In this document: piece by piece, positions 16,602-39,772 of the stretch
Numbering within the stretch: the stretch's first letter is position 1
How the letters are laid out: each line of letters opens with the position of its first letter
The notes under the pieces: model-generated
The model's input: only the letters and a program-made list of their open reading frames with translations
The model's database searches: none
What the model was told of the DNA's origin: nothing
Translations under genes and position numbers: made by a program
Virus record (IMG/VR): IMGVR_UViG_3300028534_000019
Location: 31,091 to 95,090 of that record
Source: a virus
Lineage: Duplodnaviria > Heunggongvirae > Uroviricota > Caudoviricetes
DNA length: 64,000 bases
Direction: 5' to 3' (one strand)

Positions 16602-17051
16602 ATGATATATTCAAATAATAAAAAAGTAAAACACGACTATGAAATAATTGAAACATTTGAGGCAGGTGTTGTTTTGAGCGGTCCGCAAGTAAAATCAATT
16701 AGAAAAGGTTCTTTAAGCCTTAAAGGTTCTTATGTTAGTCTTGATGATGGTGTTTTATCATTAAAACAATACTCACTTGCTAGACCTGATTATTTGGATG
16801 CTTTTAGTTCTTTTGATGATAAACCAATAAAATTTTTACTCAAAAAAAGAGAGATTAAAAAATTACAAAAAAAGATTCAAGAAAAAGGTTTAACATTATC
16901 TATAACAAAAGTTTATCAACCTGAAAATACTAGATTTATTAAGGCTGAGTTAGTTCTTGTGAGAGGTAAAAAACTATATGATAAAAGAGAAGATTTAAAA
17001 AAGAAAACACAAGAAATGGATATGAAAAAGGCTATAAAATATGATAGATAA
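16602..17051 (+). CDS. smpB: SsrA-binding protein SmpB
   Basis: Collinear with E. coli SmpB: KHDYEIIETFEAGVVLSGPQVKSIRKGSLSLKGSYV vs [36 protein letters not shown]. C-terminal GKKLYDKREDLKKK vs GKKQHDKRSDIKER. Confidence 0.9.
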   Translation: MIYSNNKKVKHDYEIIETFEAGVVLSGPQVKSIRKGSLSLKGSYVSLDDGVLSLKQYSLARPDYLDAFSSFDDKPIKFLLKKREIKKLQKKIQEKGLTLSITKVYQPENTRFIKAELVLVRGKKLYDKREDLKKKTQEMDMKKAIKYDR

Positions 17052-17250
17052 TCTAAAAAGTGCTGATGAAATATATTTAGTAGTACAGTTTGGAGCAAAA
17101 GATTTTAACAATAGAACACAAGAATTGATTGATGAAAATTATATTCCATTTAGTGATGTTGCTGTTCAAAGTTTTCACGATGAATTTTGCTTTTCACAAC
17201 AGTTTATAAAAAATCCAAAATACATAGAAGAAACAAAAAGGAAAATATAA
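17041..17250 (+). CDS. hypothetical small protein
   Basis: 69-aa ORF bridging smpB and the next gene. Confidence 0.35.
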   Translation: MIDNLKSADEIYLVVQFGAKDFNNRTQELIDENYIPFSDVAVQSFHDEFCFSQQFIKNPKYIEETKRKI

Positions 17251-18041
17251 TGTTAATAGTACCTGTTGGTTTGCCTGGTTCAGGAAAAACTGTTTTATCA
17301 AGAAAATTTAATACAGTTATAAATGCTGATGAATTGTTTAAGGATAATTATACATTAGATGATTTAATAAATTATATAAAAGAATATAATTATACAGTAA
17401 CAGATGTTTATTTGGATGGTTTATTTATTACAAGGAATTTAGTTAAGAAATTGATTGAAACTTTTGATTATTATATTAGATTAGTATATTTTAAACCTAA
17501 TATAGAAAATTGTATCTACAATGATTTATCAAGAAATAGAGAAAAAGATAGTGTTAATATAATTTATGGTTCTGATTTAAGTTTTATGAAAGAAAGTTAT
17601 TTTAGAAATAAAATAAGAGAAACAATGGAAGTATATAAGGCTGATTATGTAGAATATATAAAAGAAGAAAATAACTTTCAAAATTATATAGAAACACAAG
17701 AGTATGTCTTAGAAGGAAGTACATATGGTACTTGTTGGGATGAAGACGGCCCGTCTGAAACAACACCTGATGACCCATACCATTTTACTGATTTTACAGA
17801 ACTTGAAAAGATATTTAAAAAAATGAATATTCCTTATACAGAAGAAAATTATAATAAAATTGAAAGTGTTATAGAAGAAGAAGATAGAAGTGAGGGTGAT
17901 TATTATGGTGGTTATGCTTATAAAGAGGTTTATAGAGTTGAAGTTACATTATTAATAAAAGCAATACTAAAAGAGTTTTTTGGTATTGATAAAACAGATA
18001 TGGCATATATTAAAAAAGAATACCCTGAACTAATATTTTAA
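17250..18041 (+). CDS. P-loop kinase (polynucleotide-kinase-like kinase domain) ending ...KKEYPELIF
   Basis: MLIVPVGLPGSGKT Walker A at the N-terminus, as in the T4 Pnk kinase domain (ILTIGCPGSGKST). The ORF track extends to 17187, but the ATG at 17250 gives the P-loop at the N-terminus. Confidence 0.5.
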   Translation: MLIVPVGLPGSGKTVLSRKFNTVINADELFKDNYTLDDLINYIKEYNYTVTDVYLDGLFITRNLVKKLIETFDYYIRLVYFKPNIENCIYNDLSRNREKDSVNIIYGSDLSFMKESYFRNKIRETMEVYKADYVEYIKEENNFQNYIETQEYVLEGSTYGTCWDEDGPSETTPDDPYHFTDFTELEKIFKKMNIPYTEENYNKIESVIEEEDRSEGDYYGGYAYKEVYRVEVTLLIKAILKEFFGIDKTDMAYIKKEYPELIF

Positions 18042-18056
18042 AAAAAAGGCTAAAAA

Positions 18057-18569
18057 ATGGTAGAAGAAAATAATTTTAGAGAAACAAAAACACATATTTA
18101 TTTTTGGGGTAGTATCTATTCTCAATGGTACACTTCAAAAAACCAATTCAAAGAAGATGGATTTATTTTTCAAAATGCTGAACAGTATATGATGATGAAA
18201 AAAGCAGAACTTTTTAAAGATTATGATGTATTAGAAAAAATGAAACAAACAAGTAATCCAAAGGTATTAAAAAAATTGGGTAGAGAAATTAAAGGTTTTG
18301 ATGAAGATATTTGGAATTTTAATAAAATGGATATTGTTGAAAGAGGGAATTTTTTAAAGTTCTCTCAAAATCCTAAGTTATTAGAAAAACTTATAGCACA
18401 CAAAAATAAACATATAGTAGAAGCATCACCTTATGATAAGATTTGGGGTATTGGGCTTCATTGGTCAGATGATAAGGTATTAAATGAAAGTACTTGGAAT
18501 GGTGAAAATCTTTTAGGTAAATGTATTATGTCAGCAAGAGATAAAATTTTAAATCCAAAATCTATATAA
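18057..18569 (+). CDS. NADAR-domain protein (YbiA-like, ADP-ribose/NAD-related N-glycosidase family)
   Basis: Collinear with E. coli YbiA: FWGSIYSQWY, NAEQYMMMKKAELF, FSQNPKLLEKL, VEASPYDKIWGIG (YbiA: VEHTENDAYWGDG). Confidence 0.8.
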   Translation: MVEENNFRETKTHIYFWGSIYSQWYTSKNQFKEDGFIFQNAEQYMMMKKAELFKDYDVLEKMKQTSNPKVLKKLGREIKGFDEDIWNFNKMDIVERGNFLKFSQNPKLLEKLIAHKNKHIVEASPYDKIWGIGLHWSDDKVLNESTWNGENLLGKCIMSARDKILNPKSI

Positions 18570-18639
18570 TAAGAAAAAATTAAATAAAAATATTATATAA
18601 TTAAGAATTAAAACATTTAAAACACAAAGGAGATAATTT

Positions 18640-20490
18640 ATGGCAGTTATTGGTATAGATTTAGGAACGACAAATAGTGCTGTTTCAGTTTATGAAGTAG
18701 GGGAATTTAAAATTATTCCTAATGCTGAGGGTAAAAATACAACACCTAGTATTGTAGCATTTACAGATAAAGGGGATGTATTAGTAGGGGAATCAGCAAA
18801 AAGACAAGCAGTCACAAACCCTGAAAAAACTATTGAAGCAATTAAAAGAATTATGGGTATGCAATTTAATGAACCTAGATGTAAAGAGGCTCAAGAAAAA
18901 GTACAATATAAAATTGTAGATAAAAATGGTTTGGCCGCTGTTGATGTTGATGGTAAGATTTATACACCACAAGAAATTTCAGCTAAAATCCTTACAAAAC
19001 TAAAAGATGATGCAGAAGCATTTATTGGTAAAGAAGTTACAGATGCTGTAATTACAGTTCCAGCATACTTTAATGATGCTCAGAGAAAGGCGACACAAGA
19101 GGCAGGCGTTATTGCAGGGCTTAATGTACTAAGAATTATTAATGAACCTACTTCGGCCGCTCTTGCTTATGGTTTGGACAAAAAAGGTGAGGAAAATATT
19201 CTTGTTTATGATTTTGGTGGTGGTACTTTTGATGTATCTGTATTAGAAATTGGAGATGGTACTTTTGAAGTTCTTTCAACTGATGGTAATGCTTTCTTAG
19301 GTGGTAAAGACTTTGACCAAATTTTAGTTAATTATATTGCTGAATATTTTAAAGAGAAACAGGGTGTTGATTTAAGAAATGATAAAATGGCACTTCAAAG
19401 ATTATATGATGCTTCAGAAAATGCTAAAAAAGAGTTATCAAGTGTTGTAGAAACTGAAATTAACTTACCATTTATTACTATGACAGAAGCCGGCCCGCAG
19501 CATCTTGTTTTAAAAATTTCAAGAGGTAAATTTGAGGGGTTAGTACAAAATCTTGTAGATGAAACTATTGAACATATTACAACAGCATTACAAGACGCTG
19601 GTTTAAGTGTAGATGATATTAGTGAATTGATTATGGTTGGTGGCTCAACAAGAATACCTTTAGTACAAGAGGCAGTTTCAAAGTATTTTAAAGGTAAAAC
19701 TCTTAATAAATCTGTTAATCCTGATGAAGTTGTAGCCGCTGGTGCTTCAATTCAAGGTGGTGTATTAACAGGAGATGTAAAAGATGTTCTTCTTCTTGAT
19801 GTTACACCATTATCACTTGGTATTGAAACTATGGGTGGTATTGCTACTAAAATCATCCCAAAAGGTACAACTATTCCTGTTAAAAAATCAGAAATCTTTA
19901 GTACAGCAGTTGATAATCAACCAGCAGTTAGTATTGTAGTAGTACAAGGTGAAGCAAAATTAGCAGAAGATAATAAATCTTTAGGACAATTTAATCTTGA
20001 GGGTATAACACCAGCTAAAAAAGGTGTACCACAAATTGAAGTTAATTTTGATGTTGATTCTAATGGTGTTTTGAGTGTATCAGCTATTGATAAAGGAACA
20101 GGTAAAGAACAGAAAATAACAATTACAGGTTCGACAGGTTTAAGTGAAGAAGAAATTAGAAAGATGATTGATGATGCTGAAAAACAAAATCAAGAAAAGG
20201 CTGAAAAAATTAAAGCAATTGAAGCAAAAAATGAATTGGATGCTACTCTTTCAAGAATTAAAAACTTTAATGATGAAGAAAAAAATGAAGTGCTATCAGC
20301 TAAAATTTCTGATGTTGAAGAATATGTAAAAGAAGATAGAACAGCAGAAGAAATTAGAAAAATTAGAGATGAACTTGAAGAAGTTTATTTAAAAGCATTT
20401 GAAGAGAAATCAAAAAGAAATGAAGGTGCTGAGGTAAAAGAAAGCACTGAAAATAATGATGATGTTATTGATGCTGAAATTGAAGAATAA
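18640..20490 (+). CDS. dnaK: Hsp70 chaperone DnaK homolog (full NBD + SBD + lid)
   Basis: [26 protein letters not shown] and the substrate-binding domain are all canonical. Confidence 0.95.
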
Positions 20491-20501
20491 AAGAGGAAAA
20501 A

Positions 20502-21305
20502 TTGAAAAAATTATATAAAATTCTTGAAATTGAAGAAACTTCTACAACAGTAGAAATAAAAAAAGCATATAGAAAATTAGCTAAAAAATACCACCCTGAT
20601 GTTTGTAAAGAAGAGGGTGGTGAAGATAAGTTTAAAGAAATTAATAGAGCATATGAAGTTCTAAGCAATCCACAAGAAAAACAAAAGTATGATAGATTTG
20701 GTGATGAAATGTATGAAAAAATGGGGTCAGGTGGTGGAAGACCTAATCCAAATGCTGATGAGTTTGCAGAAGCAATGGCATCATTTTTCAACCAAAAGGG
20801 AAATCCCCGACAAGGTAATCCTTTTGGTATGGGTGGTAATCCTTTTATTCATACAACAATTCAAGCATATATTTCGATAGAAGATTTATTTAAAGGTACT
20901 TCTATACAATTACAAGATGGTACTAAAGTAAAAATACCACCTAGAACAATACCGGGTAGTAGGGTAAGAGTTAAAGGCAAAGGTATGTCAGATGGTAAAA
21001 ATACAGGAGATTTATTTATTATCATAACACCAAAAAATAATGATAAAGAATTTGTTGAGAATGATACTATTATAAAGATTATCAAAATTGATTTAGTTAG
21101 TATGATTTTTGGAAATGAAATAAAATATAATCATTATGGTAAAGATTTAATTGTTACTGTTCCAAAAAATACAAAGCCCGGTGACTTTGTACAAATTCCC
21201 AATCAGGGCTTAGGTACTCAGGGTTCATTAATTTTACATTTAGATTTAGAATTACCAAAAGCAGAAGATTTAGATGAAGAAAAAGTAAAAGAATTATTTA
21301 ATTAA
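20502..21305 (+). CDS. DnaJ-like J-domain co-chaperone (type II, no Zn finger), TTG start
   Basis: J-domain YKILEI...AYRKLAKKYHPDV...YEVLSNPQEKQKYD. Gly-rich linker and a DnaJ C-terminal domain. AAGAGGAAAAA RBS before the TTG. Confidence 0.85.
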   Translation: MKKLYKILEIEETSTTVEIKKAYRKLAKKYHPDVCKEEGGEDKFKEINRAYEVLSNPQEKQKYDRFGDEMYEKMGSGGGRPNPNADEFAEAMASFFNQKGNPRQGNPFGMGGNPFIHTTIQAYISIEDLFKGTSIQLQDGTKVKIPPRTIPGSRVRVKGKGMSDGKNTGDLFIIITPKNNDKEFVENDTIIKIIKIDLVSMIFGNEIKYNHYGKDLIVTVPKNTKPGDFVQIPNQGLGTQGSLILHLDLELPKAEDLDEEKVKELFN

Positions 21306-21364
21306 TATACAATTAAGGTTTCTTTTGCTATAATTTCATCATATATAAACTAAAAGGATTCAAA

Positions 21365-21769
21365 ATGGCAAAAGAAAAAAGTTATGGGGTTGCTCCTTAT
21401 TTAATTATAAATGGGCAATATTATATATTGTTAAATAAAACATCAGAACATAGTAGATACAATTTCTTCAAAGGTAAAATTGAAGAGGGTGAAACTATTG
21501 CTCAATGTGCCAAAAGAGAATTTTGGGAAGAAACAGGTGTAGAAGTTGATGAGAGAGATTTTGAAGAATATTTTTTCCAAAAGTCTTCTAAAAAAGATGT
21601 TGGTATTTTTTTAATTAATTGGTCTAAATATATTAATAAAAAATTTCAATTTCAAAAAAGAGAAATTTGGGCTTCTTATTGGGTAGAGGTTGATGATGTT
21701 CAAACATCCAAAAACCAAAAAGAAATTGTTGATTCTATTGAATCTTTTTTTAAAAATAAATCTGAGTAA
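21365..21769 (+). CDS. Nudix hydrolase
   Basis: Nudix box GKIEEGETIAQCAKREFWEETGV (GX5EX7REUXEEXGU). Confidence 0.8.
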   Translation: MAKEKSYGVAPYLIINGQYYILLNKTSEHSRYNFFKGKIEEGETIAQCAKREFWEETGVEVDERDFEEYFFQKSSKKDVGIFLINWSKYINKKFQFQKREIWASYWVEVDDVQTSKNQKEIVDSIESFFKNKSE

Positions 21770-21785
21770 AAAGTAAAGGTAAAAA

Positions 21786-23236: not shown

Positions 23237-23245
23237 AGGAATAAT

Positions 23246-24447: not shown

Positions 24448-25548
24448 ATGTTAGTTCAAAATAAAAAAGTTCCAAAAGAAACATTAGAGTTATTGGACTC
24501 TAAAATAGAAGAATTTGAAAAAAATACAAATTCAACTGTTTTATATATTACAATTACAGGTTCTGTTCTTTATGGTACTGATAATGAAAATAGTGATTTA
24601 GATTTTAAAGGTATTTTTATGCCTAATCTAAAAGAAGTGCTTATTGGTAATACACCTAGTGCTTTTGTTTTTAATTCAAATACAAAAGATAAAAACTCTT
24701 CTGATGATATTGATTTAACATTACACCCTGTAAATGACTTCTTTAATCATCTTAGAAAATCTGAAACAGGTGCTGTTGATTTACTTTTTAGTATGTTTAG
24801 AGAAGATACTATTGTTTTTGATGATGGTATTTTCACGAACTTTATGAAGAAAAATTATCAAAAGTTTAGAAATTCTAATATGAAAAGTTTTATCGGTTAT
24901 GCTGTTGGTCAAACTAAAAAATTTGGGATTAAAGGTGCTAGATATGAAGAGTTAGATGTTTTTTATAAAGATTGTGTTAATTATTTTAATCTTGCTCCAA
25001 AAGAAAATAAATTAGGTGAATATTGGGATTTTCTTGAACTAAAAGCCCAAGGTAAAAAATATATTAAGTTTACAAAAGCAGAAGGTGCTAGAAGAAATGA
25101 TGGTAGTAGTAATATCATTGATTATATTTCTGTTCTTGGTAAACTATATCATAAAGATGTAACAGTAGGTTATTTTTTAGAAAGAGTTTCTAAATTTTAT
25201 AATCAATTTGGTAATAGAACTAAAACAGTAGCTAAAACTGAATCAAAAACAGATTGGAAAGCAATGAGCCACGCCCTTAGAGTAGCTATGGAAGTTAAAG
25301 AGTTACTTCAATTTGGTTTTATTAAATTTCCATTGACTTATGCTGATGAGATTAAAGAAGTTAAATTTGGTAACAGAGAAGAACAAGAAACATTAGATAA
25401 AATTAGAGATGTATTGGGTGAAGTTGATACAATATTAGAAAATATTGATAAAGATAACTTTCCTTGTGAAATGAGTGAAGAATTACTTAAAAAATTAAAA
25501 TGGGAAGTAATTCTTCTATATAAAGAGTTTTTAGATTTAGGTTTTTAA
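24448..25548 (+). CDS. nucleotidyltransferase-fold protein (Pol-beta / CD-NTase-like GS...D.D motif)
   Basis: ITGSVLYGTDNENSDLDFKGIF is the [GS]x9-13 Dh[DE]h signature. A third acidic DIDLT lies downstream. 366 aa. Confidence 0.55.
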   Translation: MLVQNKKVPKETLELLDSKIEEFEKNTNSTVLYITITGSVLYGTDNENSDLDFKGIFMPNLKEVLIGNTPSAFVFNSNTKDKNSSDDIDLTLHPVNDFFNHLRKSETGAVDLLFSMFREDTIVFDDGIFTNFMKKNYQKFRNSNMKSFIGYAVGQTKKFGIKGARYEELDVFYKDCVNYFNLAPKENKLGEYWDFLELKAQGKKYIKFTKAEGARRNDGSSNIIDYISVLGKLYHKDVTVGYFLERVSKFYNQFGNRTKTVAKTESKTDWKAMSHALRVAMEVKELLQFGFIKFPLTYADEIKEVKFGNREEQETLDKIRDVLGEVDTILENIDKDNFPCEMSEELLKKLKWEVILLYKEFLDLGF

Positions 25549-26664: not shown

Positions 26665-27576
26665 ATGGAAGAACAAATAGCGATTGATTTAGGCTATTCA
26701 ACATCAAAAGTTGCTTATGCTGATAAAATAGCAAAATTCCCAACTGCTGTTTCTTTTGCTACTGATGTAGGTACATCATATGGTGAAGGGAATATTTATG
26801 ACTTTGAGGGAGATAAGTATTATGTGGGTAGTGAAGCCGCTGATGCTGAGGCTTTTACAACTATGGATTTTAAATTTTTATATAAATTTGCTCCTCTTCT
26901 TATCTATCATATTTTAAGTAAATTTGATAAAGCAGAACTTGAAAAACCTATTGTTGTAAAAACAGGATTGGCAATTGTTGATTGGCATAAAAAAGATGAT
27001 TTTATTGAAAGAATTTCAAAAATTGAAGTGAATGGGCAAACTGTTGAAACAACACCCATTCTTATTCCTCAAGGTGCTGGATGTGCTGTTGATTGGGTTT
27101 CATCAGATAATGATGGAGAATGGCCGGACAATCTTACAGTAGTTGATATTGGTTATAATACTATTAACCTTATATCATTTTTAGAGGGTAAACCAATTAG
27201 AAAAAATATGAAAAGTTACCCAGGACACGGTGTTTCTAGTATAATTAAACCTTTTACTAGTTATCTTGAAAATACTTTTGGTACAACATTTTCAGAACAA
27301 GAAGCAATTAAATTTTTTGTTAAAGGTACTTTTAAATATAATGGTGAAGACCAACCTAAAGTATCAGAAAAAATTACAGAATTAAAATCACAATTTGTTA
27401 AAAAAATGTTTCAATCTGTTTTAGTTTCTGATAAAAAACTTCTTGCTATGTCAGATGTAGTGCTTATTGCTGGTGGTGGTGCTTATTTACTTCAAGATAT
27501 TCCATTCCCGCCAAATGTTGAGTTTGTTGATTCTCCTTATGAGTTCAGTAATACTCGTGGTTATTTAATTTCATAA
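26665..27576 (+). CDS. actin-like ATPase of the ParM/StbA/Alp family
   Basis: Phosphate-1 IAIDLGYSTSKVA, phosphate-2 VVDIGYNTINL, adenosine motif LIAGGGA. 303 aa. Confidence 0.75.
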   Translation: MEEQIAIDLGYSTSKVAYADKIAKFPTAVSFATDVGTSYGEGNIYDFEGDKYYVGSEAADAEAFTTMDFKFLYKFAPLLIYHILSKFDKAELEKPIVVKTGLAIVDWHKKDDFIERISKIEVNGQTVETTPILIPQGAGCAVDWVSSDNDGEWPDNLTVVDIGYNTINLISFLEGKPIRKNMKSYPGHGVSSIIKPFTSYLENTFGTTFSEQEAIKFFVKGTFKYNGEDQPKVSEKITELKSQFVKKMFQSVLVSDKKLLAMSDVVLIAGGGAYLLQDIPFPPNVEFVDSPYEFSNTRGYLIS

Positions 27577-28442: not shown

Positions 28443-28889
28443 ATGATTTTAGATAAAATCACAAAAGAACAATTATTAGCAAGAAAGAATAGAGATACCT
28501 TTAAAACAGGTATCTTAACTACATTAATGTCAGAAGTATCTATTATAGGTAAGAATAAAGGTAATAGAAAAACAACTGATGAAGAAGCAATTGCTGTTAT
28601 AAAGAAATTTATTTCAAATGCTGAAAATAACATTGAATCTCTTCAAGGTTCTCATAATTGGGAAAATTGTACTGAAAGTATTCAAGAATTTCAAGATGAA
28701 ATAGAATTACTTCAAGGTTTTTTACCAAAACAAATGACCGAAGATGAGTTAAAAGTATCTATTGAAGTTATGGTTTCAAAAGGTGCTAACAATATTGGTG
28801 CTATTATGGGTACTCTTAAAAAAGAATATGGTGGATTATATGATGGCAAGATGGCTAGTAAACTAGCTAAAGAAGTTTTATCAAAATAA
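28443..28889 (+). CDS. GatB/YqeY-domain protein
   Basis: 148 aa. The C-terminal KGANNIGAIMGTLKKEYGGLYDGKMASKLAKEVL matches the YqeY/GatB C-terminal helical domain pattern. Confidence 0.6.
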   Translation: MILDKITKEQLLARKNRDTFKTGILTTLMSEVSIIGKNKGNRKTTDEEAIAVIKKFISNAENNIESLQGSHNWENCTESIQEFQDEIELLQGFLPKQMTEDELKVSIEVMVSKGANNIGAIMGTLKKEYGGLYDGKMASKLAKEVLSK

Positions 28890-31549: not shown

Positions 31550-31567
31550 AAAATAAAAAGGAAAGAA

Positions 31568-32455: not shown

Positions 32456-32465
32456 GAGTATCTTC

Positions 32466-33183: not shown

Positions 33184-33245
33184 TTAATTTTAATTTAAGC
33201 ATTTAATAGATATAATATCACATATAAAAGGAAAAAGGAACAAAA

Positions 33246-33461: not shown

Positions 33462-33464
33462 AGA

Positions 33465-34577
33465 ATGAAAATTACAGAGATTAAACCTATTTTACAGTTT
33501 TCTAAAGATGCTGATGATGCTGTAATCATTGAGGGTAAACACGGTATTGGTAAATCAGAAATAGTTAAACAATATTGTTCGGAAAATGGTTATTTTTATA
33601 CTGTTTTATTTTTAAGTCATCAAGAAGTTGGTGATTTGATTGGTATGCCTTTTGAAAAAAATGGTATTCAATATTGGTCTAAACCATCTTGGTTAGTAAG
33701 AATGGAAGAAGCATCAGCAAGAGGGGAACATAATGTTTTACTCTTAGATGAGTTAAACCGAGCCCAAACTGATGTATTACAAAGTGCTTTACAACTTGTT
33801 TTAGAAAGACAAATTCACGAGCATTTCTTACCTACTACTGATGGTGTAAGAAGTCAAGTAATTGCTTGTATTAACCCTGATGATGATTTATATCAAGTAA
33901 TTACACTTGACCCAGCACTAAAAGATAGATTTTTACATTTAAAAACAAGTGAAGATTTACAAGGATGGGTTAAATGGGGTGGTGAAAAAGGAGTACCTGA
34001 TGTTGTTATTCATTACTTGCTTGAAAATGAAAATGATTTTCATAGTACAAATGAAGATGGTGAGGGTGCTACACCAAGAAGTTGGTATAAATTAAGTCAA
34101 TTCTTGAAAATATTTGAAGATAAAGAAGTTGAAGAATTTCAACTTTGGGAGATTATTAAAGGTAAAGTAGGTTCAAGTATCGGTAGCAAATTCCTTAACT
34201 TTTATAATACTCATAGTACATTTATTGATGTTACAAAAATTAAAAAGTTTTTAAATAAATATAAAAGAGATATTTCTGATTTACCTGAAATTGGTGCTGA
34301 ATTAGCTAGTTATATTAAAGGTCTTGAACAAGTAACTAAAGTAGAACAAGTTAATAAACTATATCACGACAGTATTGAAAAAATTAAAGATACTAAAGTT
34401 ACTATGGATGATGAAGATATTTTCACTATTTTTGCTATGCTTCACGCTTTTGAAATAGAAGTAACAACATCAGTTATGAAGCAATGGAAAAATGAAAGTG
34501 TGAGTGATTTTATGGATTTTGTTAAAAAAGATAATAAAGAACTCATTACATTAATAACAAGAAGATTAAAAACATAA
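33465..34577 (+). CDS. MoxR/CobS-like AAA+ ATPase (AAA_5)
   Basis: Walker A GKHGIGKSE, Walker B/sensor LLLDELNRA. 370 aa. Confidence 0.75.
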   Translation: MKITEIKPILQFSKDADDAVIIEGKHGIGKSEIVKQYCSENGYFYTVLFLSHQEVGDLIGMPFEKNGIQYWSKPSWLVRMEEASARGEHNVLLLDELNRAQTDVLQSALQLVLERQIHEHFLPTTDGVRSQVIACINPDDDLYQVITLDPALKDRFLHLKTSEDLQGWVKWGGEKGVPDVVIHYLLENENDFHSTNEDGEGATPRSWYKLSQFLKIFEDKEVEEFQLWEIIKGKVGSSIGSKFLNFYNTHSTFIDVTKIKKFLNKYKRDISDLPEIGAELASYIKGLEQVTKVEQVNKLYHDSIEKIKDTKVTMDDEDIFTIFAMLHAFEIEVTTSVMKQWKNESVSDFMDFVKKDNKELITLITRRLKT

Positions 34578-34592
34578 AAGAGGTATTAAAAA

Positions 34593-34802
34593 ATGTATGC
34601 TTTAATAGGTTATAATGATGAGTATTATTACATTCAAATTTTTTCAGAAACTGATGTTGTGTATGGTTATATAATATATAACTTTAGTGGGGATAAAAGT
34701 TTAGTAGTTGATAATTTCCCAATTAGTTCAGTATTAAAAAGGTTTGAAACATTATATACTATTGAAGAAATACAAAATTTATACCCTGAATTAAAGTTCT
34801 AA
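34593..34802 (+). CDS. small protein ending ...NLYPELKF
   Basis: 69-aa ORF between the AAA+ and VWA genes. Member of the YPE-tail set. Confidence 0.45.
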   Translation: MYALIGYNDEYYYIQIFSETDVVYGYIIYNFSGDKSLVVDNFPISSVLKRFETLYTIEEIQNLYPELKF

Positions 34803-34814
34803 GAAAGGTTTTAT

Positions 34815-35183
34815 ATGGTAAAATTTCATAAAGATTATGATTTTAAAGGTGCTGATTTAGAAATCTTAAAAAAATTTCATAAAGATAATAATATTTCAAG
34901 AGTTGTATTAGATATAGAACTTAAAAAAGATAAAATTATGTTTTATTGGATTGAATATTCTAATTTTAGATATTTGTATGTTGATGATTTAAAAAGAAGT
35001 AGAGATATTAATATTAGCATATTCAAAATTAATGATATTATTTCTATAACAAATAGAGATTTTAACACACAAATATATTTTAAAGATGATATGTTTTATA
35101 TACCAAATAATAAAAATACTGATGTATTAATTGATGAATTTATCGAAGGTGATACATCAGTGAAAATTTTAAGAAAGATTTAA
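34815..35183 (+). CDS. hypothetical protein
   Basis: 122-aa ORF. Confidence 0.4.
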   Translation: MVKFHKDYDFKGADLEILKKFHKDNNISRVVLDIELKKDKIMFYWIEYSNFRYLYVDDLKRSRDINISIFKINDIISITNRDFNTQIYFKDDMFYIPNNKNTDVLIDEFIEGDTSVKILRKI

Positions 35184-35219
35184 TATTTTTTAGTGTATAA
35201 TGTCATATAAAGGATTAAA

Positions 35220-36473
35220 ATGGCTAAGAGTAATTTAAGAAGTGAAATTATTGAGGAAACTGTTATAAATGCCTTTTCAAATAAGAGAGATGGTTTTGTA
35301 AATGAGTATGCTTTTTATTTTCATATGTTTGCTATGTGTAATATAATTGAAACAGAAGATGTAGAGTTAGCAGGTGTTAATTTTATTAAAAAATGGAATT
35401 TATATATAAATCCTAAAGAGTTTCAAAAATATTCACTTAATCAAAGACTTGGTATAATTAAGCACGAAATGCTTCACATAATTTTTAACCATTTAGTAAG
35501 AATGGAAAACAAAGAAAAAGAAGAATGGAATTTAGCTACTGATTGTGCTATTAATCAAATGATTAGAAGTGCTGATTTACCTAAAGAAAGAGTAGATACA
35601 AAAAGTCTAAGTGAATATTTGGGTGTTGATGTACCTACTAATCAAAGTGCTGATTATTATTATGATTTAATTATGAAAAATAAAAAACAACAAAATAAAT
35701 GTGGTGGCAGTTCATCAGGTGGTTGTCCACAACAAGGTGATGGTAGTGGTTCTGATGAAAGTGATGGTTTAGGTACATTAGATGACCATAATAAATGGGA
35801 AGAGTCGGAAAGTATGGATGGTATAGAAGAACTTATTGAATCTTCTGTTAAAGATATGGTTTCAAAAGCCCAAGACAAAAACAGAGGTCTAACACCACAA
35901 GAACTTAATGAAATTATTGAGATTATTTTTGGTAAATCTGTTGTTAATTGGAAAAGTGTTTTAAGAAATATTGTTTCTAATAGAAGAGTTAATAAAAGAT
36001 ATACAATTCAAAAAAGGAATAGAAGATTCCCAAAAAGAATAGAAATTAGAGGTACAACAAAAGAGAAAAAATTTGATATTGTTGTTATACTTGATATTTC
36101 AGGTAGTATGAATGATAGTGAAATTCAAGATGGTTTAAATGAAATTAAAGCAATTGCTAAATTAACAAAATCTAGTATTAAGATAATTCAAGTCGATACA
36201 ACTGTTAAAGAAGTTCAAGAGTTTACAGCAAAGACAAAAACATTTAATAGACTTGGTTGTGGTGGTACAATGATGTATCCAGCACTTCAATATATAAAAG
36301 ATAACAAAATAGATATGGATTGTGGCATTTTGATTTCAGATATGATGATTGAAAGTTTAGATACTTGGGAACAAAAAGGTTTAGCACCAAAATGTAAATT
36401 TATCTTTTTGAATACTAGTAACCACTCACTAAAAACAACAACAAGAAAAAACTATATGTTTTTTGATTTATAA
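35220..36473 (+). CDS. VWA-domain protein with N-terminal HExxH metallopeptidase-like domain (CobT/DUF2201-like partner of MoxR ATPase)
   Basis: KHEMLHIIFNH (HExxH). Gly/Ser-rich linker. VWA MIDAS VVILDISGSMND...GGT. Confidence 0.7.
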   Translation: MAKSNLRSEIIEETVINAFSNKRDGFVNEYAFYFHMFAMCNIIETEDVELAGVNFIKKWNLYINPKEFQKYSLNQRLGIIKHEMLHIIFNHLVRMENKEKEEWNLATDCAINQMIRSADLPKERVDTKSLSEYLGVDVPTNQSADYYYDLIMKNKKQQNKCGGSSSGGCPQQGDGSGSDESDGLGTLDDHNKWEESESMDGIEELIESSVKDMVSKAQDKNRGLTPQELNEIIEIIFGKSVVNWKSVLRNIVSNRRVNKRYTIQKRNRRFPKRIEIRGTTKEKKFDIVVILDISGSMNDSEIQDGLNEIKAIAKLTKSSIKIIQVDTTVKEVQEFTAKTKTFNRLGCGGTMMYPALQYIKDNKIDMDCGILISDMMIESLDTWEQKGLAPKCKFIFLNTSNHSLKTTTRKNYMFFDL

Positions 36474-36485
36474 AAAGGAAATAAA

Positions 36486-36833
36486 ATGGAATATTTATAT
36501 ATAATTTTAATTGGTTATGCTTTTAATTTTGCTGTTGAAATTATTTGGACAATACTTACAATTATTGTAACCACTGGTTCTATAATACAAGACCCAAAGA
36601 GTATGTTAGAACTTAAAAAATTAGAATCTTTAACAGCTAGATATAAATTGTTAAATAAAGATATACCCTTTAGTAAAAAAAGCACTGAGAAAATAGCTTC
36701 GGCTTTTCCTTTTGCTTCAATAGTTGGTATGATTCTATTAACATATAAAATTAAACAAAATAATGGTTTAGTTGGTTATATTGAGAGTGAAAATAAAAGA
36801 TTTGAAGAAATAATAAAAGAGCAAAAAGGTTAA
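36486..36833 (+). CDS. small membrane protein
   Basis: 115 aa with two hydrophobic segments. Confidence 0.45.
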   Translation: MEYLYIILIGYAFNFAVEIIWTILTIIVTTGSIIQDPKSMLELKKLESLTARYKLLNKDIPFSKKSTEKIASAFPFASIVGMILLTYKIKQNNGLVGYIESENKRFEEIIKEQKG

Positions 36834-36901
36834 ATTTTTTAAGTTTCATTTAAGTCTAATATGTTATAATTTTACATATCAAAAGACAAAAAGGATTTAA
36901 A

Positions 36902-37321
36902 ATGATTTTAATCATAGATACATTATTTACAGAAAGTGTTGCTTTAACAGTTATTCAAGAAAAAGAGAATGAAAAAAGAGTTAAAGAAGTTAATTATAAA
37001 GATGTTAAAAAAGAAATTGAAAATAACACTTTTAATATTTGTAATTTAAAAGATGATGTTATAAGATTTATTAAAATAAATGATGTTCCTGCTGATGTTT
37101 TTGAAAGTTTTAAAGAGTATTTAAGAGGTTGTTTATTTGAATTAACAGTTAAAAACCTTAAAAAAGGTTTTGAAGATACTTTGAAAATACAAGAAGTTAC
37201 TAAATCAATTAATGATTTAGATATTAAAATTTCTATTGCTGATAATGTTTTTGAATTAGGACAATTATCAATAGCATTAGATTATTATAAAAATGAATTA
37301 GATAAAATAAAAGGGTTATAA
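36902..37321 (+). CDS. hypothetical protein
   Basis: 139-aa ORF behind the second copy of the 66-nt promoter cassette. Confidence 0.45.
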   Translation: MILIIDTLFTESVALTVIQEKENEKRVKEVNYKDVKKEIENNTFNICNLKDDVIRFIKINDVPADVFESFKEYLRGCLFELTVKNLKKGFEDTLKIQEVTKSINDLDIKISIADNVFELGQLSIALDYYKNELDKIKGL

Positions 37322-38004
37322 TGGATAATATATTATTAAGAGATTTAGTTAATGAGATTGATGAAAATACTAAGGTTATTTCAGATACTCATTTTTCTCA
37401 TAAAAATATCCTAAATTTTGAGCCTTGTAGATTAACACAAATGAGAATTGATGGTTATGATGCAGATGAACACGACAAATGGCTCATAGATAAATGGAAT
37501 GAGAATGTAGGTAAAGATGAACTTGTTATACATTTAGGTGATTTTGCTTTTAAAAGAGTAGCTGAATGTTTAGAAGAATTAAATGGTAGAATTATTTTAA
37601 TTCTTGGAAACCACGATGGAAATTCAAAAAATACAAAATATAATAAGGCTACTGTTGTAGATGGTTCTTATATGTTTCTAAAGTCTTATACAGATGATAC
37701 AATATTATGTAAAATTGTTGATGAAGATGAGAAAAATAGTTCTTTGATAATTGAAATTGGTGGTAAGACTGTTATGTTTTGTCATTATGCTTTATTTAAT
37801 AAAAATGGTGAATGGGATTATAAAAATCCAAAGATAGCACCAAGAATTAAATATCTTGAGAGTATTTATTCTATGTTAGATTGTGATGTAAATGTACACG
37901 GTCATCTACATAGTTCTATTAGTACTTTTGATAAAAGTATAAACTGTTCTCTTGAACATATTGAGTTTAAACCAACAAAAATAAAAGATTTAAAAGGGTG
38001 GTAA
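37321..38004 (+). CDS. calcineurin-like metallophosphoesterase
   Basis: MPP motifs ISDTHFSH, HLGDF, ILGNHDG, GHLH. Confidence 0.75.
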   Translation: MDNILLRDLVNEIDENTKVISDTHFSHKNILNFEPCRLTQMRIDGYDADEHDKWLIDKWNENVGKDELVIHLGDFAFKRVAECLEELNGRIILILGNHDGNSKNTKYNKATVVDGSYMFLKSYTDDTILCKIVDEDEKNSSLIIEIGGKTVMFCHYALFNKNGEWDYKNPKIAPRIKYLESIYSMLDCDVNVHGHLHSSISTFDKSINCSLEHIEFKPTKIKDLKGW

Positions 38005-38172
38005 ATGGTAGTAAATGATTTAAGAGTTATGCTAAGTACAGCATTAGAAATTATTGGTGATAGAAATGCTTTACCATCAGATAAAGATAAAATTATTCTA
38101 TTGATGAAGAGTGAAGCAACAACACATAATCTTGAAGAAATAGAAAAGATTTGTGAAAAATATAAAGGATAG
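38005..38172 (+). CDS. possible small ORF (~55 aa) not in the ORF track
   Basis: ATG at 38005 overlapping the previous stop. Open to a TAG at about 38170. Fills the gap before the CCA-enzyme gene. Confidence 0.3.
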   Translation: MVVNDLRVMLSTALEIIGDRNALPSDKDKIILLMKSEATTHNLEEIEKICEKYKG

Positions 38173-38174
38173 TA

Positions 38175-39122
38175 ATGTTTGTTGTTAGAAAATTGCTTGA
38201 AGAAGCAAATGATAATTATTTTAAAAGACTTAATGATAATGAAATATCTAAAAATGATATAGAAATTTATGAAACTATTTTCCCTATTAGAAAATTAGAT
38301 GCTAGAAAATTAGATGATTTTGTTTCTAAAACTAACATTGATAATCTATTAATTAAAATTTCAAAACTAGATAATTCTTATATTAAAACTTTACTTAATG
38401 ATGTAATACTGATATTATCTAATGAAAAACCAAACTCAAGTCTAGCAGAAAATCTAAATCTTGTAAAAATGAGAATTGAAATAGATTTAGATGATGATGT
38501 TAAAAATTTTATATATGCTGAGGATATTATAGAAGTTTTAAAAACATTACCTAAAAGAACATTTATTGTAGGTGGTTTTGTTAGAGATTCAATAGCTAAT
38601 AGAAGTGCTAATGATATGGATTTTTGTACTGAAAATAGCTATGAAGATGTAAAAAAAGTTTTTGAAAAAAATAAAAACTTCTCTATTAAAGAAACAGGTA
38701 AACATTTTTCTGTTTTGATTGTTACAGATAAAAATAATCTTGAATCTTTTGAAATTGCTCAATTAAGAAAAGACAAAGATAATGGTGGTGCTGAAATAGG
38801 AACTATTATAGATGATGCTGAAAGAAGAGATTTTATGAATAGTGCTATTTACTTTGATATTAATTCTAAAGTATTAATTGACCCTCACGGTCAATCAATA
38901 GATGATAGTGTCAGAAATGTAATTAGATTTATTGGCAAACCTGAGGATAGAATAAAAGAAGACCCTCTAAGGGTTCTAAGATTTTATAGATTTATGGGTA
39001 GAGGTTGGGTAGCTGATTCAAAATCATTAAAAGCAGTGAGAACTAATTTTAGTTTAATGATGAATGAAACATCTCATAATAGAGTTATGAGTGAAATTGA
39101 AAAAATGGTAATGGGAGCATAA
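38175..39122 (+). CDS. cca: tRNA nucleotidyltransferase (CCA-adding enzyme, class II head domain)
   Basis: FIVGGFVRDSI (GGxVRD), NDMDFC (DxD), DAERRDFMNSAIYFD (RRD motif), EDPLRVLRFYRF (EDxxR). Confidence 0.8.
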   Translation: MFVVRKLLEEANDNYFKRLNDNEISKNDIEIYETIFPIRKLDARKLDDFVSKTNIDNLLIKISKLDNSYIKTLLNDVILILSNEKPNSSLAENLNLVKMRIEIDLDDDVKNFIYAEDIIEVLKTLPKRTFIVGGFVRDSIANRSANDMDFCTENSYEDVKKVFEKNKNFSIKETGKHFSVLIVTDKNNLESFEIAQLRKDKDNGGAEIGTIIDDAERRDFMNSAIYFDINSKVLIDPHGQSIDDSVRNVIRFIGKPEDRIKEDPLRVLRFYRFMGRGWVADSKSLKAVRTNFSLMMNETSHNRVMSEIEKMVMGA

Positions 39123-39353
39123 ATGAATTGTACAGTTTTATATAAAGACAAAGATTATGATATAACAGTGAAAGGTTTTAAAAACATTACAGAAGCAGAG
39201 GATTTTATTCAAGATAAAACTGAAGATGATGAATGTTATGAACCGAGAATAATGGTTGATTATCCAATCATTCAACAACAAGAAGAAACAATAAAACTAT
39301 TAAGAAGTTTACTTGAATCTTTTGCTAATGATTTTAAAGTAAAAAGATTATAA
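39123..39353 (+). CDS. hypothetical small protein
   Basis: 76-aa ORF. Confidence 0.4.
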   Translation: MNCTVLYKDKDYDITVKGFKNITEAEDFIQDKTEDDECYEPRIMVDYPIIQQQEETIKLLRSLLESFANDFKVKRL

Positions 39354-39451
39354 ATATCTTTGATATTTTATAAAAAATTAAGTAAAGTTAGAGTATAATT
39401 ACACATACAAAAAGGATATGTTGTTTTAATTATAAAAACTTTACTTACTAT

Positions 39452-39772
39452 GGGGATGATATGGTTTCGACTGGAAGTCATAGCACTAATGATACCTTTT
39501 AAAATTAAACGCAAACAACACAGATTACACTGGTAACACAGTGCTTTCAGCATAGTCTAAGGACTTGACTGAGGGGTTTTTAAGTTTTACCTTGCAACAG
39601 AAAAACTTATCCTTTTCGTTTTATATGGTTGTATGTCCTTAACATACATTAAAGTTTGTAATCTTTTCAAAATTACACATAAAAGTTAATAGTTCTTGGT
39701 TCTTTTAAAAACTAGAACATATCATTAGTGTGGATTTTTAGGACTCGGGTTCAATTCCCGACATCTCCACCA
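39452..39772 (+). ncRNA. ssrA: tmRNA (ssrA), about 321 nt
   Basis: 5' GGGGAUG pairs with 3' CAUCUCC-ACCA, giving an acceptor stem with a G3:U wobble (Ala identity). 3' tRNA-like GGACUCGGGUUCAAUUCCCGA T-arm. Encoded CCA. Internal tag ORF GCA AAC AAC ACA GAT TAC ACT GGT AAC ACA GTG CTT TCA GCA TAG gives ANNTDYTGNTVLSA-stop. Coordinates are +/-1 to 2. Confidence 0.85.

What the first reader, a model, noticed from the sequence alone, without database searches (positions are those of the whole stretch)
16602..39772. Phage-encoded trans-translation kit: tmRNA + SmpB + CCA-adding enzyme (+ YqeY)
The tmRNA gene at about 39452-39772 is convincing on three counts: a G:U-containing acceptor stem, a T-arm and an encoded CCA. 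The phage also carries a bona fide smpB (16602-17051). A class-II CCA-adding enzyme (38175-39122) lies directly upstream of the tmRNA, and a GatB/YqeY-domain protein at 28443. Phage tmRNAs are sporadically reported, but a phage supplying its own SmpB partner and CCA enzyme next to the tmRNA looks like a self-sufficient ribosome-rescue or tagging module. It could either maintain translation on damaged phage or host mRNAs, or re-target tagged proteins.
Basis: partly seen in the sequence, partly recalled or inferred. Interest (0 to 1): 0.8.

Follow-up and report, generated by a model that had tools for sequence, protein, structure and literature searches.

The report
Phage-encoded tmRNA and SmpB pair
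A T4-like phage carries its own ribosome-rescue RNA (tmRNA) and that RNA's dedicated protein partner SmpB; this has been seen before in giant phages, and here the RNA is unusually stripped down and the neighbouring "CCA enzyme" and YqeY genes are not shown to belong to it.

Summary
All four features exist at the stated coordinates. The tmRNA (39452-39772) is found by ARAGORN and scores 90.8 bits on Rfam (threshold 47). SmpB (16602-17051) is full length with an intact C-terminal tail. The window is a T4-like phage at 26% GC from a 100.9-kb contig, so both genes are phage-borne.

The "self-sufficient kit" reading is only partly supported. smpB and the tmRNA lie 22.4 kb apart. The "CCA enzyme" is a head-and-neck-only nucleotidyltransferase, and its homologues sit in other T4-like phages with no tmRNA nearby. 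YqeY occurs in 196 phage records.

None of the parts is new. About 2.3% of phage genomes carry a tmRNA. Al-Shayeb 2020 reported tmRNA, SmpB and CCA-adding enzymes in huge phages. Three IMG/VR huge-phage contigs have SmpB and a tmRNA within 10 kb.

Two things are unusual.
- The tmRNA lacks helix 2d and pseudoknot 1: its resume codon is at nucleotide 60, against 85-95 in 66 of 66 bacterial tmRNAs.
- Its tag ends ...VLSA rather than ...AA.

Phage G and several viral contigs have similarly shortened tmRNAs.

Verdict: a real new member of a known kind, of moderate interest.

The parts
39452..39772 (+). One-piece tmRNA gene, 321 nt, with encoded CCA
   Evidence: ARAGORN. Rfam RF00023 at 90.8 bits against a threshold of 47, full length. 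Identical copies are in L131 and L132.
39452..39471 (+). 5' half of the tRNA-like domain: acceptor strand GGGGAUG (G3 pairs with U) and the D-loop analogue AUAUGGUUUCGAC
   Evidence: Sequence, fold and Rfam alignment with high posterior probability.
39471..39494 (+). Helix 2, 5' strand (tmRNA nt 20-28 and 32-43). It pairs with window 39720-39741 as 9 + 12 bp.
   Evidence: MFE and centroid folds, and pairing read directly from the sequence.
39495..39510 (+). 16-nt single-stranded linker CCUUUUAAAAUUAAAC, where helix 2d and pseudoknot 1 would normally sit. Its last 11 nt are the conserved upstream context of the resume codon.
   Evidence: The Rfam alignment shows the deletion. All 66 bacterial tmRNAs with the same context have the resume codon at nt 85-95, against 60 here. 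No pseudoknot candidate involves nt 40-62.
39511..39555 (+). Tag reading frame: GCA resume codon, 14 codons (ANNTDYTGNTVLSA), then a UAG stop
   Evidence: ARAGORN and translation. TAG is an ordinary stop in this phage: genes end in TAA 67 times, TAG 12 times and TGA 4 times.
39573..39685 (+). Downstream pseudoknot region. Candidate H-type pseudoknots lie at tmRNA nt 122-158 and 206-234, with a hairpin at 179-197.
   Evidence: Own stem search: 7 candidates against 2.9 +/- 2.1 in shuffles. Partial matches to Rfam helices. There is no covariation support.
39720..39772 (+). Helix 2 3' strand, T-arm (UCGGG-UUCAAUU-CCCGA), acceptor 3' strand CAUCUCC, discriminator A and CCA
39349..39356 (+). TATAAATA, a candidate T4-type late promoter, 96 nt upstream of the mature tmRNA 5' end
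   Evidence: 12 of the 20 TATAAATA sites in the window lie within 60 nt upstream of a same-strand gene (binomial P about 1e-12). Its use for the tmRNA is an inference.
16602..17051 (+). smpB, 149 aa, full length with C-terminal tail GKKLYDKREDLKKKTQEMDMKKAIKYDR
   Evidence: Pfam and NCBIfam. PDB alignments to SmpB chains 7ljp, 1j1h and 1p6v. It keeps all 14 invariant columns of alignment A3. The closest database sequence is 49% identical.
38175..39122 (+). Head-and-neck-only class II nucleotidyltransferase (315 aa) with a helical N-terminal domain of about 120 aa. It is adjacent to the tmRNA but not shown to be dedicated to it.
   Evidence: Motifs GGFVRD..DMD, RRD and EDPLR. Family alignment A1. 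AlphaFold2 model with pLDDT 91.4. Foldseek aligns about 200 residues to 1miv at rmsd 2.2 A, with nothing matching a body or tail.
28443..28889 (+). YqeY/GatB-C-like protein. Association with the rescue pair is unproven.
   Evidence: PF09424 at 64.8 bits. Homologues occur in 196 phage records and near SmpB in 4 huge-phage loci.

Best explanation
A T4-like, very AT-rich phage encodes the two dedicated parts of bacterial trans-translation.

**What it carries**
- A one-piece tmRNA with every tRNA-like identity element for alanylation and EF-Tu delivery.
- A full-length SmpB, whose C-terminal tail probes the empty mRNA channel of a stalled ribosome.

**Inferred mechanism**
1. During infection the phage adds its own tmRNA-SmpB complex to the host pool.
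2. Ribosomes stranded on broken mRNAs are thereby released and reused for phage protein synthesis. Such breaks could come from phage-driven host mRNA decay or from host RNase-based defences.
3. Host AlaRS, EF-Tu, RNase P, ribosomes and release factors do the rest.
4. Rescued peptides receive the tag ANNTDYTGNTVLSA. Its C-terminus differs from the usual ...AA degron, so their fate may differ from that of host-tagged proteins.

**Structure of the RNA.** It is a reduced form. Helix 2d and pseudoknot 1 are gone, and a 16-nt linker joins helix 2 directly to the resume codon.

**Neighbouring genes.** The adjacent short nucleotidyltransferase most likely belongs to the phage's general RNA-repair set, alongside RlaP, a metallophosphatase and NUDIX. 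It is probably not a tmRNA-specific factor. YqeY is an accessory gene common to large phages.

**Shown:** the genes, their integrity, their phage context and the reduced RNA architecture. **Inferred:** expression, activity, and the benefit to the phage.
For: - **tmRNA.** Two independent detectors agree, with a canonical tRNA-like domain, helix 2, resume context and in-frame stop. The resume context AAAAUUAAACGCAAACAAC is identical to that of many Campylobacterota and Clostridia tmRNAs.
- **SmpB.** It is above equivalog cut-offs and has an intact tail.
- **Not recent host DNA.** The best SmpB identity among 5.8 billion proteins is 49%. No bacterial tmRNA in the sample has its architecture. GC is a uniform 22-30% across the window. 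T4-type structural and replication genes flank both genes.
- **SmpB is kept in related phages.** L271 shares TerL at 58%, neck at 51% and SmpB at 44% identity. L269 shares SmpB at 51%, the nucleotidyltransferase at 42% and NUDIX at 51%.
- **Short-linker tmRNAs recur in phage contexts,** which argues that they work. Phage G has its resume codon at nt 68. L135 has it at 65, L211 at 62 and L193/L181 at 65, all inside tRNA arrays.
- **Literature on pseudoknot 1.** In E. coli, pk1 can be replaced by a hairpin or by single-stranded RNA without loss of tagging (PMC4236655).
- **Precedent.** Al-Shayeb 2020, and IMG/VR huge-phage contigs with SmpB plus a tmRNA.
- **Nucleotidyltransferase not tmRNA-linked.**
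Against: - There is no expression or activity data of any kind.
- Helix 2d and pk1 are among the most conserved tmRNA features (PMC1168896, PMC4236655). A 16-nt linker is shorter than anything tested experimentally, so activity on host ribosomes is not guaranteed.
- The tag's ...VLSA end is unlike all 66 bacterial tags sampled.
- smpB and the tmRNA are far apart. They may be transcribed at different times: only the tmRNA has a late-promoter motif upstream.
- No tmRNA was found near SmpB in the closest relatives, though only +/-10 kb could be read.
- The host is unknown. The tmRNA looks Campylobacterota-like, but the nearest bacterial SmpB sequences are Erysipelotrichaceae and Bacteroidales at about 45% identity.
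Confidence: 0.7

Rival explanations
1. Retargeting rather than plain rescue. The phage pair outcompetes the host tmRNA so that stalled products get a tag (...VLSA) that host ClpXP/SspB handles poorly, or that a different protease recognises. This would either spare truncated phage proteins or redirect degradation.
For: The tag ends in Ser-Ala. All 66 bacterial tags with the same start end in A/V-A. Other phage tmRNAs also have altered ends: phage G ends ...LQVA, and permuted tmRNAs in tRNA-rich viral contigs end ...ALV...SLV or ...VSV where the bacterial forms in the same scan end ...VAA. Buchholz 2022 proposes selective tagging as one possible role.
Against: Huge-phage tmRNAs next to SmpB (L344, L310, L347) and the short ones in L135, L211 and L193 keep canonical ...AA ends. 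No phage adaptor or protease specific for the tag was found. The Clp-like ORF at 13926-14552 sits beside TerL, which is typical of a prohead protease. Degron recognition cannot be judged from sequence.
Confidence: 0.2
2. Inhibitor or decoy. The reduced tmRNA, with or without its SmpB, blocks host trans-translation, as the TLD-only RNA of mycobacteriophage DS6A is reported to do.
For: Loss of helix 2d and pk1. Hudson 2014 describes inhibition by the TLD-only RNA.
Against: The resume context, the 14-codon frame and the stop codon are all preserved. A decoy would not need these, nor a co-encoded full-length SmpB.
Confidence: 0.06
3. Not functional phage genes. They could be host DNA from a chimeric assembly, a prophage flank, or a tmRNA fragment left over as an attachment site.
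For: Many SmpB and tmRNA hits in viral databases are of this kind: smpB-ssrA pairs at the ends of provirus contigs, and Staphylococcus prophage records with smpB at position 40-462.
Against: Both genes are internal, on the same strand as their neighbours, and at the phage's own 26% GC. The tmRNA is complete. No integrase was seen among the roughly 60 ORFs scanned in the window. The same arrangement appears in two further assembly records. Both genes are highly divergent from any bacterial copy.
Confidence: 0.03

Closest known systems
Bacterial tmRNA-SmpB trans-translation (E. coli, T. thermophilus; Rfam RF00023, Pfam PF01668)
   Same: tRNA-like domain with G3:U and CCA, long helix 2, A-rich upstream element, GCA resume codon, short tag frame with a stop, downstream pseudoknot region, and an SmpB beta-barrel with a basic C-terminal tail.
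   Different: It is encoded by a lytic-type phage. It has no helix 2d or pseudoknot 1: the resume codon is at nt 60 against 85-95. The RNA is 321 nt against 338-394 nt for the 66 bacterial tmRNAs sampled. The tag ends ...LSA. smpB is not adjacent to ssrA.
Huge-phage translation gene sets (Al-Shayeb et al. 2020, PMC7162821) and IMG/VR contigs L344, L310 and L347
   Same: Phage genomes carrying SmpB, tmRNA, CCA-adding-type nucleotidyltransferase, YqeY and chaperones.
   Different: Those genomes exceed 200 kb, apart from L310's 134-kb contig. They usually carry large tRNA arrays and full-length tmRNAs (359-447 nt, resume codon at 91-105) with ...AA tags. This one is a T4-like phage on a 100.9-kb contig, with no tRNA in 64 kb and a reduced tmRNA.
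Phage tmRNAs without a phage SmpB: cluster C mycobacteriophages (Bxz1), Bacillus phage G, and Melnitz and pelagimyophages (two-piece)
   Same: A tmRNA carried by a lytic phage. About 2.3% of phage genomes have one (PMC9004378; PMC4131195). Phage G's tmRNA is also short (309 nt, resume codon at 68) with a non-AA tag end.
   Different: The sources consulted report no SmpB for these phages. Hudson 2014 found no phage smpB in its 2012 data set, which did not include phage G, and the 2025 phage G paper does not mention one. Here the partner protein is co-encoded.
Lak megaphages (Prevotella phage Lak-C1)
   Same: They encode an SmpB homologue, 34% identical.
   Different: ARAGORN finds no tmRNA anywhere in the 540-kb Lak-C1 genome. 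That phage appears to supply only the protein.
Phage tRNA nucleotidyltransferases (annotated in 329 GenBank phage records) and class II CCA-adding enzymes (PDB 1miv, 6ibp)
   Same: Head and neck with motifs A, B and D, at rmsd 2.2 A over about 200 residues.
   Different: There is no body or tail domain. A helical N-terminal domain of about 120 aa has no structural match. Nucleotide specificity is unknown.

Membership tests
tmRNA (one-piece, RF00023) | Score above the curated Rfam threshold over the full model | tested here: met
   90.8 bits against 47, model positions 1-374. ARAGORN agrees.
tmRNA (one-piece, RF00023) | tRNA-like domain: 7-bp acceptor stem with G3:U, discriminator A, T-arm and 3' CCA | tested here: met
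   GGGGAUG/CAUCUCC-A-CCA and UCGGG-UUCAAUU-CCCGA. Posterior probabilities are near 1 in the Rfam alignment.
tmRNA (one-piece, RF00023) | Resume codon in a conserved A-rich context, followed by a short tag frame ending in a stop codon | tested here: met
   UAAAAUUAAAC-GCA, 14 codons, UAG. The context is identical to that of 66 bacterial tmRNAs.
tmRNA (one-piece, RF00023) | Helix 2d and pseudoknot 1 between helix 2 and the resume codon | tested here: not met
   Only 16 nt separate helix 2 from the resume codon. The Rfam alignment shows CAUGCCGAGG plus 26 nt deleted on the 5' side and UAAGCAUGUAG deleted on the 3' side. All 66 bacterial comparators have 85-95 nt before the resume codon, against 60 here. 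No pseudoknot candidate was found. The RNA still works as a family member by every other criterion, so I file it as a reduced variant.
tmRNA (one-piece, RF00023) | Pseudoknots 2-4 downstream of the tag | tested here: inconclusive
   Two H-type candidates and one hairpin. No relatives were available for covariation analysis.
tmRNA (one-piece, RF00023) | Tag ends in a hydrophobic ...(L/V/K/F)AA-type degron | tested here: not met
   The tag ends ...VLSA. None of the 66 sampled bacterial tags has Ser at the penultimate position.
SmpB (PF01668 / TIGR00086 / NF003843) | Full-length match above the curated equivalog cut-offs | tested here: met
   130.3 against 130 and 126.8 against 119.1. Pfam gives 132 bits over positions 2-142 of 143.
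SmpB (PF01668 / TIGR00086 / NF003843) | C-terminal tail with the GKKxYDKR motif and a basic helix, needed for entry into the A site | tested here: met
   GKKLYDKREDLKKKTQEMDMKKAIKYDR aligns to the tails of 7ljp and 1p6v. Invariant G122, D127 and K128 are kept.
SmpB (PF01668 / TIGR00086 / NF003843) | Binds the tRNA-like domain of its tmRNA and supports tagging | not testable with these tools
   This needs biochemistry.
Class II CCA-adding enzyme | Catalytic head and neck with motifs A (GGxVRD, DxD), B (RRD) and D (EDxxR) | tested here: met
   GGFVRD, DMD, RRD and EDPLR. These are invariant across 19 family members. Foldseek matches 1miv at rmsd 2.2 A.
Class II CCA-adding enzyme | Body and tail domains that hold the tRNA (PF12627, PF13735), and a full-length equivalog score | tested here: not met
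   The protein ends after the neck. The best NCBIfam score is 93.8 against a cut-off of 290. The conserved short C-terminus ...EIEKMxGL occurs across the family. No structural match lies beyond about 200 residues.
Class II CCA-adding enzyme | Adds C-C-A to tRNA or tmRNA 3' ends, as opposed to A only, CC only or poly(A) | not testable with these tools
   Specificity cannot be read from these motifs.
   smpB ends at 17051 and the tmRNA starts at 39452. Chaperone, nucleotide-metabolism and RNA-repair genes lie between them.
   Nucleotidyltransferase homologues occur without a tmRNA in 5 loci. The SmpB-bearing relatives L269 and L271 show no tmRNA within the DNA held. L269 keeps the nucleotidyltransferase 6 kb from SmpB, and YqeY lies near SmpB in 4 huge-phage loci. 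Only +/-10 kb could be read.

The most novel reading that the evidence does not exclude
Phage tmRNAs may form a structurally reduced class that has repeatedly lost helix 2d and pseudoknot 1. Resume codons are at nt 60-68 in this phage, in phage G, and in L135, L211, L193 and L194. This phage couples such a minimal RNA to its own diverged SmpB and to a tag without the ...AA degron. Together these would make a rescue system that frees ribosomes but handles the tagged products differently from the host system. It would be a natural minimal tmRNA-SmpB pair for structural and synthetic work.
Probability: 0.25. Interest if true: 0.65.

Novelty: new member of a known kind. Interest (0 to 1): 0.45.

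Why it matters
No phage-encoded tmRNA-SmpB pair was found to have been tested experimentally in the papers searched. This one is compact and both partners are on one contig. The RNA naturally lacks the element (pk1 and helix 2d) that has been most debated in tmRNA function.

- If the pair is active, it defines a smaller natural trans-translation unit than any bacterial one sampled here.
- It would show that ordinary-sized T4-like phages, not only "huge" ones, invest in ribosome rescue, plausibly to counter RNA-cleaving host defences.
- The odd tag end makes a simple testable question: does the phage want rescued products degraded?

If the pair is inactive or merely redundant with the host system, the finding is one more entry in the known list of translation genes carried by large phages.

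Tried and rejected
- **Close relatives of the phage.** Megablast of 24 kb against GenBank phages found nothing. Single-protein scans of IMG/VR with SmpB and with DnaK2 found nothing.
- **Relatives of the tmRNA.** blastn against phages gave only T-arm matches. Three specific IMG/VR patterns gave no hit. Covariation analysis of the pseudoknots and a covariance model were therefore not possible.
- **tmRNA next to homologues of the short nucleotidyltransferase.** None in L005 and L007-L010.
- **tmRNA near SmpB elsewhere.** None in LR756501 within +/-20 kb or in Lak-C1. A whole-genome ARAGORN scan of Lak-C1 was negative; Rfam was not run on all of it. None in L269-L271, even at E up to 0.01.
- **Small ORF after the nucleotidyltransferase as a conserved partner.** The ORFs in that position in relatives are not homologous.
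- **TAG recoding that would lengthen the tag.** Rejected, because TAG ends 12 genes.
- **Sigma-70 promoter and terminator scan around the tmRNA.** Not above the shuffle expectation, so uninformative.
- **Supplements of the tmRNA database paper.** They held no phage table.
- **Host identification.** Unresolved. The tmRNA and tag look Campylobacterota-like and TerL is 39% identical to Campylobacter T4-like phages, but SmpB does not point the same way.

Full report
**1.

ARAGORN finds one RNA gene in the 64-kb window. It is a tmRNA at 39452-39772 (+) with tag ANNTDYTGNTVLSA*. Rfam's tmRNA model RF00023 matches the same coordinates end to end at 90.8 bits, against a gathering score of 47 (E=5e-34).

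Reading the sequence and its fold (z=-3.96) gives these features:
- a 7-bp acceptor stem GGGGAUG/CAUCUCC with the G3:U pair used by AlaRS
- discriminator A and an encoded CCA
- a T-arm UCGGG-UUCAAUU-CCCGA
- a 21-bp helix 2 (nt 20-28 and 32-43 pairing with 269-290)
- a GCA resume codon at nt 60, and 14 codons ending in UAG

TAG is an ordinary stop in this phage. Genes end in TAA 67 times, TAG 12 times and TGA 4 times.

The three protein claims check out as follows.
- ORF 16602-17051 is SmpB. Pfam gives 132 bits over the whole model, and both NCBIfam equivalog cut-offs are passed. It aligns to solved SmpB structures through the C-terminal tail GKKLYDKRED....
- ORF 28443-28889 is a YqeY-family protein.
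- ORF 38175-39122 has a PolyA_pol head domain.

**2. It is a phage**

The window encodes the following T4-type genes:
- TerL, tape measure and baseplate wedge
- gp15- and gp19-like tail proteins
- gp32, RNase H, neck protein and a prohead-type protease

GC is 22-30% throughout. Nearly all genes are on one strand. TATAAATA, the T4 late-promoter motif, sits within 60 nt upstream of same-strand genes in 12 of its 20 occurrences (P about 1e-12). One copy lies 96 nt before the tmRNA.

The nearest TerL sequences are from Vibrio phage phiKT1024 (41% identity) and the Campylobacter T4-like phages CP220 and CPt10 (39%). The source contig is 100,859 bp. The same segment with an identical tmRNA is in an ENA assembly and a Logan contig.

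SmpB is at most 49% identical to anything among 5.8 billion proteins. Host contamination and a prophage flank are therefore very unlikely.

**3. What lies around it**

Between smpB and the tmRNA lie about 40 genes:
- NADAR, Hsp70/DnaK and DnaJ
- NUDIX and RlaP (an RNA-repair nucleotidyltransferase)
- a ParM-like actin, YqeY, ThyX and an SPFH protein
- a MoxR ATPase with a VWA/DUF2201 partner, and a metallophosphatase

A second Hsp70 follows the tmRNA. The two trans-translation genes are 22.4 kb apart, so they do not form a module in the physical sense.

**4. The "CCA enzyme"**

The 315-aa protein keeps motifs A (GGFVRD, DMD), B (RRD) and D (EDPLR). It aligns only to about residues 38-242 of 420-aa CCA-adding enzymes. 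All NCBIfam CCA and PcnB models score far below their cut-offs.

It belongs to a family of 206-355-aa proteins with a conserved C-terminus ...EIEKMxGL. The short form is therefore natural, not a truncation. An AlphaFold2 model (pLDDT 91.4) superposes about 200 residues on the head and neck of 1miv at 2.2 A. The helical N-terminal 120 residues match nothing.

Family members sit in other T4-like phage contigs beside rIIB, Rnl1, RlaP, NADAR and Cpn10, with no tmRNA or tRNA nearby. Nucleotidyltransferases of this type occur in 329 GenBank phage records. Because the tmRNA encodes its own CCA, the adjacency seen here is best read as coincidental or as general 3'-end repair.

**5. YqeY**

Homologues occur in 196 phage records. 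Against that background, one observation favours a loose link. In four huge-phage loci (L296, L315, L341, L344) a YqeY gene lies within 4 kb of SmpB.

**6. An unexpected feature: the tmRNA is reduced**

Only 16 nt (CCUUUUAAAAUUAAAC) separate helix 2 from the resume codon. The Rfam alignment shows the conserved helix 2d and pk1 segment missing on both strands.

I scanned one genome per bacterial species for the phage's resume context, AAAATTAAACGCAAAYAAY (capped at 120 loci). The 66 tmRNAs found all place the resume codon at nt 85-95. The phage places it at nt 60. A MAFFT alignment shows a gap of about 30 nt there. A search for H-type pseudoknots finds nothing in nt 40-62, but finds plausible ones at 122-158 and 206-234.

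According to the literature, pk1 is nearly universal (PMC1168896). In E. coli it can nevertheless be replaced by a hairpin or by single-stranded RNA (PMC4236655).

The phage tmRNA is most similar to Campylobacterota tmRNAs, which take the top 16 places of 66. Their tags (ANNTNYAPAYAKVA, ANNTNYRPALAVA) resemble the phage's in length and start, but not at the end. None of the 66 has Ser-Ala as its last two residues.

**7. The reduction is not unique to this phage**

| Source | tmRNA length | Resume codon | Tag | Context |
|---|---|---|---|---|
| L135 (75-kb contig, metagenome scan for short-linker tmRNAs) | 296 nt | nt 65 | ANNYSYAMAA | no encoded CCA; Rfam 57.8 bits; 17 tRNA genes alongside, including an amber suppressor |
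| L211 (IMG/VR) | 303 nt | nt 62 | ANTQTAFALAA | tRNA array |
| L193 / L181 (IMG/VR) | 226 / 225 nt | nt 65 | ANTQNNLALAA | tRNA array (L193) |
| L194 (IMG/VR) | 297 nt | nt 60 | doubtful 33-residue tag | no tRNA in the locus |
| Bacillus phage G | 309 nt | nt 68 | ...LQVA | tRNA array |

None of the metagenomic loci has an SmpB nearby. I found no paper that remarks on this reduction.

**8. Prior knowledge**

- Hudson 2014 listed phage tmRNAs (phage G and cluster C mycobacteriophages) and found no phage smpB in 2012 data.
- Buchholz 2022 counted tmRNAs in 402 of 18,146 phage genomes, or 2.3%.
- Al-Shayeb 2020 reported tmRNAs, SmpB and CCA-adding enzymes among huge-phage genes.

My own scans add the following.
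- tblastn finds SmpB in the 735-kb phage and in Lak megaphages.
- Lak-C1 has no ARAGORN-detectable tmRNA in its whole genome.
- At least 370 SmpB-coding stretches exist in IMG/VR. Many are host smpB-ssrA pairs at provirus ends.
- About 35 of the 80 loci kept are internal to large low-GC viral contigs. In three of these (L344, L310, L347) a full-length tmRNA lies within 10 kb of SmpB.
- Two contigs are relatives of this phage and keep SmpB: L271 (TerL 58% identical) and L269 (SmpB 51%, with the short nucleotidyltransferase 6 kb away).
- Two further phage-like contigs pair a 47-49%-identical SmpB with Thg1.

**9. Interpretation**

The most likely reading (about 0.7) is that the phage supplements host ribosome rescue with its own tmRNA-SmpB. 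It would rely on the host for charging, delivery and processing. The nucleotidyltransferase and YqeY are part of a broader RNA-repair and translation-support repertoire, not dedicated parts.

The rivals are retargeting of tagged products (0.2), a decoy or inhibitor (0.06) and an artefact (0.03).

The finding is real but is a new member of a known kind. Its specific interest lies in the natural loss of pk1 and helix 2d, the non-canonical tag end, and the occurrence in a T4-like phage on a 100.9-kb contig, well below the 200-kb huge-phage threshold (its full genome size is not known). All functional statements are inference, because no expression or activity data exist.

Noticed in passing
window 18640-21305 and 39844-41706: The phage encodes two Hsp70/DnaK paralogues. 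One (18640-20490) is followed directly by a DnaJ (20502-21305). The other starts 72 nt after the tmRNA. No GrpE was recognised. Huge phages also carry DnaK, at 47-55% identity by tblastn.
   Followed up: partly
window 39349-39356 and 19 other sites: TATAAATA, the T4 late-promoter motif, is not enriched overall (20 sites against 27 expected). However, 12 of the 20 sites lie within 60 nt upstream of same-strand genes, mostly structural ones (P about 1e-12). This suggests T4-type late transcription.
   Followed up: yes
window 4884-5633, 18057-18569, 21365-21769, 24448-25548, 37321-38004: A set of genes related to NAD/ADP-ribose and RNA repair is scattered through the window: Sir2, NADAR, NUDIX, RlaP nucleotidyltransferase and a metallophosphatase. 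They look like counter-defence or RNA-repair functions.
   Followed up: no
window 33465-36473: A MoxR-type AAA ATPase lies about 0.6 kb upstream of a DUF2201 metallopeptidase/VWA protein, with two small ORFs between them. Similar MoxR genes, with a VWA gene in two cases, lie within a few kb of SmpB in the viral contigs L310, L317 and L347.
   Followed up: partly
window 26665-27576: An actin-like (ParM/ALP) protein is encoded in a T4-like phage.
   Followed up: no
L135 5874-6169 (-) and L134: A 296-nt tmRNA has its resume codon at nt 65, the tag ANNYSYAMAA and no encoded CCA. It sits among 17 tRNA genes that include a CUA (amber suppressor) tRNA, next to a DUF2828/DUF7788 (Ro-like) gene. This looks like a stop-codon-recoded phage.
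   Followed up: partly
L140, L142, L154, L162, L184, L209, L230, L239 and about 25 further IMG/VR loci: Circularly permuted, cyanobacterial-type tmRNAs sit in viral loci with up to 26 tRNAs. Their tags end ...ALV, ...SLV, ...VSV or ...QTV. The forms in tRNA-poor loci of the same scan end ...PVAA or ...LVAA. The phage versions therefore seem to have lost the terminal Ala-Ala.
   Followed up: no
L350 7061-7369 (Bacillus phage G, JN638751 412060-412368): Phage G's annotated tmRNA is 309 nt with the resume codon at nt 68 and a tag ending ...LQVA. It is thus also shortened upstream of the tag. It lies in a tRNA cluster that includes a tRNA with anticodon UUA.
   Followed up: partly
L257-L268 (Prevotella phage Lak-C1, MK250029): Lak-C1 encodes SmpB, with an 18-tRNA cluster 5-16 kb downstream of it. 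ARAGORN finds no tmRNA anywhere in its 540-kb genome.
   Followed up: yes
L002 797-1246 and 8333-9226; L133 61-519 and 1609-2553: Two phage-like contigs carry an SmpB 47-49% identical to this phage's, together with a Thg1-family (tRNA-His guanylyltransferase-like) gene.
   Followed up: no
L009 5203-5875 (-): Two group I introns (Rfam 97.8 and 78.9 bits) interrupt what looks like a tail-sheath gene. The contig is from a related T4-like phage that carries the short nucleotidyltransferase.
   Followed up: no
window 13926-14552: A Clp-protease-like ORF lies directly after TerL. Its position suggests a prohead maturation protease rather than a protease for tagged proteins.
   Followed up: no
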